A stretch of DNA of 14,677 nt, taken from Octopus sinensis. Its lineage: Eukaryota. The DNA lies in contig NW_021825756.1 in NCBI RefSeq assembly GCF_006345805.1, positions 1-14,677 on the forward strand, read 5' to 3'. This document shows positions 3,154 to 4,042 of this stretch, one piece after another. Positions within the stretch are counted from its first letter, which is position 1. The number at the start of each line of letters is the position of its first letter. The position numbers were made by a program.

Positions 3154-3219
<66 letters not shown>

Positions 3220-4042
3220 CCACTCTCTTATATTTATTTTGTAAAAATATTATAATATATTATAAAATATTATAATAATCCAGGTTTCTCGGAGCACTAG
3301 GCCACTTGGTGTAGAATAGATATACTATTAAATTAGTATCTAATTCTCTCACCCTTATTAATTAATTATATTATGCTGCATTTATTTCTAAATGCTGTAT
3401 TTGTTTTCCGTGAAAATTTGGCGCGCTGTTAGTTGGGGCATTGAATTATAACGTCGGATGTAATCAATTGAACCACACGCGTATTTATCGTTATGGTAAA
3501 ATCTGGCGTGTGATTGAGTGGATTTCATCCAGATAGTTTTGGCTGAGGAGCTACAAGTGGATTTTTTTGTAAGTAAAATACATTTAATTCATTAATAGCG
3601 AAACAATTGTCCCAAAATAATCTGTAGTTTTGTTATTTTTTATTTGCCCTGTCCGTGTGAGCTAACAATCGTACTGACTTTCATGGAAAAATGTATTTTT
3701 GTGGTTTGAAACCTTTTGGATTAACTGGTGCTAGAGTGAGCCATATAGTGACCACTCTCTTATATTTATTTTGTAAAAATTATAATATATTATAAAATAT
3801 TATAATAATCCAGGTTTCTCGGAGCAATAGAGCACTAGGCCACTTGGTGTAGAATAGATATACTATTAATTAGTATCTAATTCTCTCACCCTTATTAATT
3901 AATTAATATATATATATATATATATATAGTGTAATATAATATATATATATAGTGTATATATATATATATATAGTGTATATATAGTGTATATATATATAGT
4001 GTATATATATATATATATATATATATAGTGTATATATATATA

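What the first reader, a model, noticed from the sequence alone, without database searches (positions are those of the whole stretch)
3211..3905. Retrozyme-like element: 532-nt non-coding unit with one hammerhead ribozyme, integrated as 1.3 copies
Seen: a 158/163-bp direct repeat with 532-nt period brackets a complete type I HHR, has no ORF, and sits between (TA)n tracts. Established: metazoan non-LTR retrozymes are short HHR-bearing repeats that self-cleave to monomers, form circRNAs and are thought to be mobilised by PLEs; PLE pseudo-LTRs also arise as partial tandems. Inference: an RT copying a ~532-nt circular or concatemeric RNA for more than one round would leave this terminal redundancy. 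The unit seems longer than the few-hundred-nt monomers I associate with animal retrozymes, so it may be an undescribed family.
Basis: partly seen in the sequence, partly recalled or inferred. Interest (0 to 1): 0.88.

Follow-up and report, generated by a model that had tools for sequence, protein, structure and literature searches.

The report
Hammerhead-ribozyme retrozyme-like insertion in (TA)n
A 695-base non-coding insertion in a TA microsatellite holds 1.3 copies of a 532-base unit with one self-cleaving hammerhead ribozyme, and it looks like an incomplete copy of an already described kind of animal mobile element, the retrozyme.

Summary
3211-3368 (158 nt) and 3743-3905 (163 nt) are direct repeats with 155 matched columns, 0 substitutions and 3 indels, at a period of 532. 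A type I hammerhead lies at 3537-3617(+). Rfam RF00163 scores 28.6 bits, below the gathering score of 34, with E 1.2e-5. It was found only when 116 nt were scanned, because about 40 nt are inserted in helix II. The core, three helices and cleavage site 3611|3612 are intact. No ATG ORF inside the unit exceeds 46 aa. GC is 32%. Folded as a circle the unit is far more stable than shuffles (z -5.85, 0 of 100). It sits in a (TA)n tract that is the tail of a SINE-like element.

The locus fits a non-LTR retrozyme or PLE-derived element, but it has only one ribozyme, so it cannot release a monomer itself. 532 nt is within published sizes (51-972 bp; 150 to >1000 nt), so length is no sign of a new family. 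The ">1 round on a circle" idea is the published model, and here it cannot be told apart from a multimeric linear template or a later duplication. Genome copy number stayed unchecked. Verdict: new member of a known kind, moderate interest.

The parts
3129..3215 (.). Upstream (TA)n tract. It is the tail of a SINE-like element at 2850-3215 and is the target of the insertion.
   Evidence: TRF period-2 array. 2850-3215 aligns at 90% to 4876-4506 (reverse) and 2912-3210 at 82% to 5507-5799, with both alignments running through the TA tail.
3211..3368 (+). Direct repeat copy 1 (158 nt), the first part of the 532-nt unit. The 5' junction is ambiguous within 3211-3219, because ATATAGTG is shared with the microsatellite motif.
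3354..3369 (+). A/U-only stretch CUUAUUAAUUAAUUAU. It is the longest predicted single-stranded stretch of the circular fold. The unit position that forms the 3' junction of the insert (3368|3369, equal to 3905|3906) lies at its edge.
   Evidence: Partition function of the circular unit: 16 nt with mean unpaired probability 0.86, against 0.36 overall.
3369..3742 (+). Non-repeated 374-nt part of the unit. It holds the ribozyme.
3456..3530 (+). Imperfect palindrome (long hairpin) just upstream of the ribozyme.
   Evidence: The unit aligns to its own reverse complement here, 70% over 77 columns. The stretch is paired in the circular MFE.
3530..3624 (+). Type I hammerhead ribozyme with extended helix I. 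The core is CUGAGGA 3543-3549 and GAAA 3600-3603, helix III is 3603-3610, and the cleavage site is 3611|3612.
   Evidence: Rfam RF00163 at 3537-3617, 28.6 bits, E 1.2e-5. Descriptor hit. All listed pairs are canonical; the HHR-competent fold is -20.3 against an MFE of -23.0 kcal/mol. MFE z-score -3.25, 0 of 200 shuffles.
3550..3599 (+). Helix II arm: a 4-bp base, a 2x2 internal loop, 8 bp, then a 4-bp tip. It replaces the usual short loop 2.
   Evidence: Pair probabilities are 0.91-1.0 in the circular ensemble. This insertion is why Rfam's filters missed the motif.
3743..3905 (+). Direct repeat copy 2 (163 nt), the start of a second unit. It is cut off 332 nt before where its ribozyme would be.
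3906..4097 (.). Downstream (TA)n tract with interspersed AGTG (23-nt period). It continues the target microsatellite.

Best explanation
This is an incomplete genomic copy, 1.3 units long, of a non-autonomous ribozyme-bearing retroelement of the animal non-LTR retrozyme / PLE-derived kind.

Shown by the sequence:
- There is a 532-nt non-coding, AT-rich, strongly self-pairing unit with one canonical metazoan type I hammerhead. Its loop 2 is replaced by an arm of about 40 nt.
- The insert runs uninterrupted across the cleavage site and is longer than one unit.
- It lies inside a (TA)n tract that belongs to a neighbouring SINE-like element.

Inferred:
- At a source locus with tandem units, transcripts are cut by paired hammerheads. 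Helix III is only 2 bp with a palindromic loop, so two ribozymes probably have to dimerise. The cut monomers are then ligated to circles.
- A retroelement RT, most likely from a Penelope-like element whose endonuclease nicks AT-rich DNA, started cDNA synthesis at an internal, accessible A/U-rich loop of the RNA (unit position about 3368).
- It copied a circle or an uncleaved multimer for 1.3 unit lengths and ended at a short ATATAGTG microhomology with the target.
- With one ribozyme, this copy can be cut once but cannot release a monomer, so it is probably inert offspring rather than a source element.
For: Repeat and period:
- 155 of 155 aligned bases are identical, with 3 indels, at a period of 532.

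Ribozyme:
- Rfam Hammerhead_1 matches the full model at 28.6 bits, E 1.2e-5.
- 9 of 2000 simulated windows reach the same stem lengths.
- MFE z-score is -3.25, with 0 of 200 shuffles as stable.
- The catalytic fold lies within 2.7 kcal/mol of the MFE.
- Helices I and II have pair probabilities of 0.91-1.0 in the context of the whole circle.
- Negative controls under the same lax scan all lacked a hammerhead hit: motif B and the rest of the unit.
- The architecture equals the 'canonical' metazoan type I HHR that works as a dimer (PMC4209133 passages).

Unit properties:
- Non-coding.
- GC 0.32 and circular MFE -136.1 against -104.7 +/- 5.4 kcal/mol for shuffles, z -5.85, 0 of 100.
- These match 'low GC, highly self-paired circRNAs' (PMC7229834).

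Insertion into a pre-existing TA tail:
-.

PLE biochemistry:
- The PLE endonuclease prefers AT-rich DNA, and PLE RT starts internally on multi-copy RNA (PMC11167929 main text).
- A (TA)n insertion bias is reported for Naiad PLEs (PMC8557442 passages).

Relation to PLEs:
- Retrozymes are related to PLE pLTRs, and monomer offspring are common (bioRxiv 10.64898/2026.07.22.740005).

3' junction:
- It lies in the longest predicted unpaired, A/U-only stretch.
Against: - The Rfam score is below the gathering score (28.6 < 34). The motif was missed in two larger scans.
- There is no comparative or covariation support, because no other copy was available. The unit occurs once in the window, and no eukaryotic genome could be searched.
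- Only one ribozyme is present, so the defining tandem of HHR-bearing units is not met at this locus.
- Loop 2, which normally makes the tertiary contact with helix I, is replaced, so activity is unproven.
- (TA)n covers about a quarter of the window (12 arrays), so flanking TA tracts and AT-rich microhomologies are weak evidence for any particular enzyme.
- The only PLE-like trace in the window (7942-8596) is sub-threshold: Pfam GIY-YIG E 0.064, with nothing. It shows no similarity to the unit.
- LINE-type RTs are also present in the window and are not excluded as the mobilising enzyme.
Confidence: 0.6

Rival explanations
1. This is an ORF-less remnant of a Penelope-like element itself. A 5'-truncated copy (3211-3368) would sit in tandem with a complete short non-coding terminal piece (3369-3905), and the 158/163-nt repeat would be an ordinary pseudo-LTR made by PLE partial-tandem insertion from linear multi-copy RNA. 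No circle would be involved.
For: PLEs insert as partial tandems that form pLTRs, carry type I HHRs, start RT internally on multi-copy RNA and nick AT-rich DNA (PMC11167929; PMC8557442; PMC4209133). Retrozymes are reported as sisters of PLE pLTRs (bioRxiv 10.64898/2026.07.22.740005). The A-B-A layout here fits 'truncated copy plus full copy' equally well.
Against: No PLE ORF adjoins the unit. The nearest PLE-like trace is 4 kb away, is sub-threshold, and is unrelated in sequence. The HHR lies in the non-repeated part, not in the repeat. The ribozyme has a helix III and a 4-bp helix II base, whereas metazoan PLE min-HHRs are described as lacking helix III, with helix II of 7-8 bp and helix I of 4-5 bp.
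Confidence: 0.17
2. This is a piece of a ribozyme-bearing satellite or minisatellite, or a single insertion whose first 160 nt were later duplicated by slippage or unequal exchange in this recombination-prone TA-rich region. On this reading the terminal redundancy says nothing about the template.
For: The two copies differ only by slippage-type indels, 0 substitutions in 155 columns. The region is dense in microsatellites and inverted or direct TE copies. Satellite birth from such units by tandem formation is discussed in bioRxiv 10.64898/2026.07.22.740005 (Discussion).
Against: A duplication would have to begin and end exactly at the borders with the microsatellite on both sides. The strong RNA structure and the intact ribozyme point to an RNA-level life cycle for the unit, whatever made the repeat.
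Confidence: 0.13
3. The hammerhead is a chance match in AT-rich non-coding DNA, and the repeat is an unrelated duplication or an assembly artefact.
For: The match is below Rfam's gathering score, was found only in a very short scan and has an atypical helix II. A second, superficially similar motif at 7479-7556 turned out to be chance. Loose descriptor hits occur in 171 of 2000 simulated windows.
Against: At the observed stem lengths only 9 of 2000 simulated windows give a hit. The Rfam E-value is 1.2e-5 over all 4227 families. All core positions and the G10.1-C11.1 pair are present. Helices I and II dominate the ensemble. The whole unit is a z -5.85 outlier in folding energy.
Confidence: 0.06
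4. This is an LTR-type miniature element (like a plant LTR retrozyme or a TRIM), with the 158/163-nt repeats as LTRs.
For: Two near-identical direct repeats flank a 374-nt non-coding centre.
Against: The repeat ends are ATATAG...AATTA, not TG...CA. The bases after the left repeat (TATTATGC...) are no tRNA primer-binding site. There is no clear polypurine tract before the right repeat. All of these were read. The ribozyme is type I and lies in the centre, whereas LTR retrozymes carry a type III HHR inside each LTR (PMC7761336 passages).
Confidence: 0.03

Closest known systems
Metazoan non-LTR retrozymes (Cervera & de la Pena 2020, PMC7229834; Li, Clavereau & Pollet 2026 preprint, 10.64898/2026.07.22.740005)
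   Same: A type I HHR inside a short non-coding repeat unit. GC is low (32%, against the stated <45%). The predicted circle is highly self-paired with the HHR free to fold. Unit length is inside the reported range (51-972 bp; 150 to >1000 nt). The published mobilisation model is an RT copying a circle into tandem cDNA.
   Different: Only 1.3 units and one ribozyme are present here, while described loci run from dimers to large multimers and monomers are treated as inert offspring. HHR loop 2 is replaced by an arm of about 40 nt. Expression, circularity and copy number are unknown.
Canonical metazoan type I hammerhead (Schistosoma / newt satellite type; Rfam RF00163)
   Same: The core is CUGANGA...GAAA...UH. 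Helix I is 6-7 bp followed by an internal loop, the helix II base is 4 bp, and helix III is 2 bp with a 4-nt palindromic loop (ACAAUUGU). That build implies action as a dimer (PMC4209133).
   Different: Helix II continues beyond a 2x2 internal loop into 8 + 4 further base pairs. The score is therefore 28.6 bits, under the gathering score of 34. The conserved loop 1 / loop 2 contact cannot be recognised.
Penelope-like element pseudo-LTRs with min-HHRs (Cervera & de la Pena 2014; Frangieh et al. 2024)
   Same: Partial-tandem layout, a hammerhead, an AT-rich or microsatellite target, and probable internal start of reverse transcription.
   Different: There is no RT/GIY-YIG ORF attached. The ribozyme is not in the repeated segment. 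The ribozyme has a helix III and a short helix II base rather than the min-HHR form.
Mussel (Mytilus galloprovincialis) retrozymes, 350-390 bp (PMC7229834, section read)
   Same: An invertebrate non-coding repeat with a type I HHR that lacks the archetypal loop-loop nucleotides.
   Different: No sequence comparison was possible, because no retrozyme sequences were on hand. The unit here is about 150 nt longer.

Membership tests
Hammerhead ribozyme, type I (RF00163) | Conserved core: C3 U4 G5 A6 N7 G8 A9, G12 A13 A14, the A15.1-U16.1 pair, and H17 not G | tested here: met
   CUGAGGA 3543-3549, GAA 3600-3602, A3603-U3610, C3611.
Hammerhead ribozyme, type I (RF00163) | Three helices around the core, with helix I open-ended | tested here: met
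   Helix I is 7 + 5 bp, helix II is 4 + 8 + 4 bp, helix III is 2 bp, all with canonical pairs. Helices I and II are kept in the MFE and in the ensemble.
Hammerhead ribozyme, type I (RF00163) | Reaches Rfam's gathering score | tested here: not met
   28.6 bits against 34. E 1.2e-5 in the 116-nt scan. No hit. The loss is due to the 38-nt insertion in helix II shown in the alignment.
Hammerhead ribozyme, type I (RF00163) | Site-specific self-cleavage | not testable with these tools
   Needs in vitro transcription of monomer and dimer constructs.
Metazoan non-LTR retrozyme | Tandem repeat of units that each carry a type I HHR (dimer or more) | tested here: not met
   1.3 units and one HHR. The second copy ends at 3905, before its ribozyme.
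Metazoan non-LTR retrozyme | Non-coding unit with low GC and no LTR, PBS or PPT | tested here: met
   The longest internal ATG ORF is 46 aa. GC is 0.32. No PBS or PPT was seen in the sequence.
Metazoan non-LTR retrozyme | Unit size within the described range | tested here: met
   532 nt against 51-972 bp and 150 to >1000 nt. It is above the 170-400 nt of the first description.
Metazoan non-LTR retrozyme | Highly self-paired circular RNA | tested here: inconclusive
   In silico only: circular MFE z -5.85, 0 of 100 shuffles, 65% of bases paired. Whether a circle exists is not testable here.
Metazoan non-LTR retrozyme | Many dispersed copies in the genome; co-occurrence with PLEs | not testable with these tools
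   No eukaryotic genome collection was open. There is one copy in the window. The PLE trace in the window is sub-threshold only.
PLE pseudo-LTR | Direct repeats flanking an RT + GIY-YIG ORF, with the HHR inside the repeat | tested here: not met
   There is no ORF between the repeats. The HHR is in the non-repeated 3369-3742.
Plant-type LTR retrozyme | Type III HHR in each LTR, tRNA-Met PBS, PPT, 4-bp TSD | tested here: not met
   There is a single type I HHR outside the repeats. No PBS or PPT is present. A TSD cannot be read in (TA)n.

The most novel reading that the evidence does not exclude
The unit founds an undescribed invertebrate retrozyme family. Its hammerhead carries a structured arm of about 40 nt in place of loop 2, possibly a protein or RT-binding handle. 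This locus would be a fossil of target-primed rolling reverse transcription. A nicked (TA)n end would have annealed to the one long accessible A/U loop of the circRNA (3354-3369), and the RT would have run 1.3 times round. If so, junction maps of such copies would give the first genomic read-out of where and how retrozyme circles are primed.
Probability: 0.18. Interest if true: 0.55.

Novelty: new member of a known kind. Interest (0 to 1): 0.35.

Why it matters
Retrozymes are thought to spread through small circular RNAs copied by a borrowed reverse transcriptase, but how the circle is primed and which enzyme does it are still open (PMC7761336 passages; bioRxiv 10.64898/2026.07.22.740005 Discussion). 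A copy that is longer than one unit and continuous across the ribozyme cut site shows that the template was not the linear cut monomer. Both of its junctions sit at A/T microhomologies inside a microsatellite.

If many such copies exist, mapping their ends would separate two models. Under one, reverse transcription starts at a fixed internal site, as for PLEs. Under the other, starts are permuted and guided by microhomology on circles.

The case also shows that standard Rfam scans miss hammerheads with a long helix II arm, so such elements may be under-counted. On its own, though, this single locus adds a member to a described class rather than a new mechanism.

Tried and rejected
Second hammerhead. 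My descriptor also hit 7479-7556(+), with a 4-bp helix I and a 51-nt helix II insert. I rejected it:
- its MFE does not form the ribozyme, and z is -0.53 with 64 of 200 shuffles as stable;
- it shows no homology to the first motif;
- it gets no Hammerhead hit in a 126-nt lax Rfam scan.

Other ribozymes in the unit or on the minus strand. None appeared in Rfam E-value scans of 3000-4200, 3205-3540 and 3600-3910. One search also missed the real HHR, so the filters limit this negative.

Other copies of the unit in the window. There are none. Beyond the repeat itself, only AT-rich HSPs of 62-83% identity appeared.

PLE next door.
- ORF 8117-8413 looks like the start of a GIY-YIG endonuclease, but this is only a lead.
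- Pfam GIY-YIG gives E 0.064, 14 bits against a cut-off of 22.6.
- Atlas clusters score 0.94 and 0.91, with 11% and 27% of members carrying GIY-YIG.
- There was nothing in PDB sequences, nothing for 8456-8596 and nothing for 7942-8217.

tRNA-like parts. None found.

Prokaryote genomes. Exact scans with two stretches of the unit gave 0 matches, as expected for an animal element. This is no test of copy number.

LTR-element reading. Rejected on termini, PBS and PPT, and the position and type of the HHR.

Literature.
- Three searches were run.
- I found no passage on a hammerhead with a long helix II arm in the texts I read, but I did not read whole papers for this, and supplementary figures were closed.
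- Those figures include the HHR families and the model in Supplementary Fig. S9 of PMC7229834, and the family tables of the 2026 preprint. I therefore make no claim that it is not in print.

Not checked.
- Copy number, the ends of other copies, and raw-read support for the repeat.
- The taxon of the window.

Full report
**What is in the sequence**

Between two (TA)n arrays (3129-3215 and 3906-4097) lies a 695-nt stretch, 3211-3905. Its first 158 nt (3211-3368) recur as 163 nt at 3743-3905. The two copies share 155 aligned bases with no substitution. They differ by three indels: a 2-nt AT, an 8-nt local duplication in copy 2, and a 1-nt A. The start-to-start distance is 532 nt. So the stretch is 1.3 copies of a 532-nt unit or, equivalently, two short direct repeats around a 374-nt centre. 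No ATG ORF inside it exceeds 46 aa.

**The ribozyme**

On the + strand the unit carries every conserved hammerhead position:
- CUGAGGA at 3543-3549;
- G10.1-C11.1 opening helix II;
- GAA at 3600-3602;
- the A15.1-U16.1 pair;
- C17 at 3611, followed by the cleavage site 3611|3612.

The helices are as follows:
- Helix I is 7 bp (3536-3542/3612-3618). After an A-A mismatch it continues for 5 more bp.
- Helix III is 2 bp closed by AAUU, which makes the 8-nt palindrome ACAAUUGU.
- Helix II has the usual 4-bp base. It then continues through a 2x2 internal loop into 8 bp and a 4-bp tip, 50 nt in all.

Rfam found nothing at gathering thresholds over the window, and nothing at E up to 10 over 1.2 kb. 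When only 116 nt were given, Hammerhead_1 matched over its full length at 28.6 bits and E 1.2e-5. That is still under the gathering score of 34, and the alignment shows a 38-nt insertion in helix II.

Negative controls under the same lax conditions gave no hammerhead:
- a look-alike motif at 7479-7556;
- the remainder of the unit.

In a descriptor search of my own, 9 of 2000 Markov-simulated windows (both strands) produced a motif with stems as long as these. Much looser stems turned up in 171 of 2000.

The 99-nt ribozyme region folds with helices I and II in the MFE (z -3.25, 0 of 200 shuffles). The catalytically competent fold is -20.3 kcal/mol against an MFE of -23.0.

I take the hammerhead as real in form. 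Its activity is untested.

**How it compares with known hammerheads**

Cervera and de la Pena (PMC4209133, passages) describe the canonical metazoan type I HHR. Helix I is 6 bp, helix II is 4 bp, and helix III is 1-2 bp capped by a 2-4-nt palindromic loop. Such a ribozyme is too unstable to cleave as a monomer but is active as a dimer when a second copy is near.

The present motif fits this exactly, except that an arm grows out of the place of loop 2. The 2x2 internal loop sits 4 bp from the core, where loop 2 normally lies. A contact with the internal loop of helix I is therefore conceivable, but that is inference.

PLE 'min-HHRs' are described differently, with no helix III, helix II of 7-8 bp and helix I of 4-5 bp.

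**The unit as an RNA**

Folded as a circle, the 532-nt unit (GC 0.32) reaches -136.1 kcal/mol against -104.7 +/- 5.4 for 100 dinucleotide shuffles. That is z -5.85, with none as stable, and 65% of bases are paired.

In the ensemble, the pairs of helix I and helix II have probabilities of 0.91-1.0, so the ribozyme is free to form. A long imperfect hairpin (3456-3530) precedes it.

These properties match what is reported for animal retrozymes: low GC, highly self-paired circles, and the HHR not blocked (PMC7229834, passages and sections).

**Context**

The upstream TA tract is not anonymous. 2850-3215 aligns at 90% to 4876-4506 in reverse, and 2912-3210 aligns at 82% to 5507-5799. Both alignments run through a (GAT)n-(TA)n tail. 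The unit therefore sits inside the microsatellite tail of a SINE-like element, between two tail-to-tail copies of it. The TA/AGTG array continues on the far side. That makes it an insertion into a pre-existing (TA)n tract.

The window as a whole is a pile of TE fragments separated by 12 period-2 arrays, so TA flanks are common here.

Both junctions are at A/T microhomologies:
- The left junction is blurred over ATATAGTG, which is also the motif of the microsatellite.
- The right junction corresponds to unit position 3368|3369. It lies at the edge of CUUAUUAAUUAAUUAU, 3354-3369, which is the longest predicted single-stranded stretch of the circle (16 nt, mean unpaired probability 0.86 against 0.36 overall).
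- That stretch is 3% of the unit, so the coincidence is suggestive. However, A/U runs are both poorly paired and easily confused with the flank.

**Mechanism**

Shown:
- The insert is continuous across 3611|3612 and is longer than one unit. Its template was therefore not the linear, ribozyme-cut monomer.

Inferred:
- The template was either a ligated circle copied for 1.3 rounds or an uncleaved multimeric transcript.
- The published retrozyme model already proposes a primed circRNA that an RT copies into tandem cDNA (PMC7229834 Discussion).
- For a PLE, purified protein nicks AT-rich DNA. It also starts reverse transcription at internal sites of a multi-copy RNA, which explains partial tandems and pLTRs (PMC11167929 main text).
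- Naiad PLEs favour (TA)n (PMC8557442 passages).
- A 2026 preprint finds vertebrate retrozymes to be sisters of PLE pLTRs and treats monomers as immobile offspring (10.64898/2026.07.22.740005, Results part 1 and Discussion).

Reading:
- I therefore read this locus as inert offspring of a retrozyme-type element, inserted by target-primed reverse transcription, most likely by a PLE enzyme.
- Nothing in the window discriminates a circle from a multimer, or PLE RT from LINE RT.
- LINE-type RT fragments are present, whereas the PLE trace at 7942-8596 is only sub-threshold.
- With one ribozyme of the dimer-dependent type, the locus cannot itself release a monomer.

**What is not supported**

The first description gave 170-400 nt (abstract). 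The same paper's Discussion speaks of 150 to >1000 nt. The 2026 preprint reports family consensus lengths of 51-972 bp, with a mean of 650 bp in ray-finned fishes. Length is thus no argument for a new family.

**Rivals**

- (a) An ORF-less PLE remnant whose repeat is an ordinary pLTR. This is close to the main reading. It is weakened by the lack of any adjoining ORF, by the HHR lying outside the repeat, and by the non-'min' form of the HHR.
- (b) A later local duplication or a satellite fragment. This is not excluded. The indel-only differences fit slippage, but the repeat ends coincide with the microsatellite borders.
- (c) A chance motif. This is unlikely given.
- (d) An LTR-type miniature element. 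This fails on termini, PBS and PPT, and ribozyme type and place (PMC7761336 passages).

**Limits**

- No eukaryotic genome or transcriptome could be searched.
- The two exact scans of prokaryote genomes were empty, as expected.
- Copy number, the ends of other copies, attachment to PLE ORFs, covariation, expression and raw-read support for the repeat all stayed unchecked.
- Supplementary files of the papers were closed. These include the HHR family figures, the model figure and the family tables, and they may hold closer matches than I could see.

**Verdict**

- This is a new member of a known kind.
- The points of modest interest are the long helix II arm, which hides the motif from routine Rfam scans, and the junction anatomy. 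If the junction pattern recurs in other copies, it could show how retrozyme RNAs are primed.

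Noticed in passing
window 7479-7556 (+): A second hammerhead-like string: CUGAAGA ... GAA ACAUGUGU A, with a 4-bp helix I and a 51-nt helix II insert. It has no Rfam hit, an MFE z of -0.53, and no homology to the first motif. It is most likely chance.
   Followed up: yes
window 7942-8596 (+): A degraded ORF in at least two frames that looks like the linker and GIY-YIG endonuclease end of a Penelope-like element. 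It lies just after a (TA)n array (7726-7865). Support is weak: Pfam GIY-YIG E 0.064, and Atlas clusters with GIY-YIG or HTH_animal in a minority of members.
   Followed up: partly
window 2850-3215 (+), 4506-4876 (-), 5507-5799 (+): Three copies (82-90% identity) of a SINE-like element that ends in (GAT)n followed by (TA)n with interspersed AGTG. Two of them lie tail to tail around the finding. ARAGORN finds no tRNA-like part.
   Followed up: partly
window 984-2043 (+) and 10430-11374 (-): Two broken LINE-type reverse-transcriptase remnants (Pfam RVT_1 E 4.7e-12 and 2.9e-11). They are 69% identical to each other over 965 columns, in opposite orientation. The 3' end piece (2729-2793) recurs at 7291-7354 and elsewhere.
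   Followed up: partly
window 4098-4463: A 366-nt non-coding insert in the same TA microsatellite. It is unrelated to anything else in the window. It contains a CUGAUGA string at 4187 but has no hammerhead fold by my descriptor.
   Followed up: partly
window 11378-12836: A 1.46-kb (AT)n array (773 copies by TRF), with GC of 0.2-0.4% in the 500-nt composition windows from 11501 to 12500. Together the 12 period-2 arrays make up about a quarter of the window.
   Followed up: no
window 5940-6298 vs 13522-13898 (-), and 51-455 vs 12608-13003 (-): Further inverted repeat pairs (86% and 82% identity) of unidentified dispersed elements.
   Followed up: no
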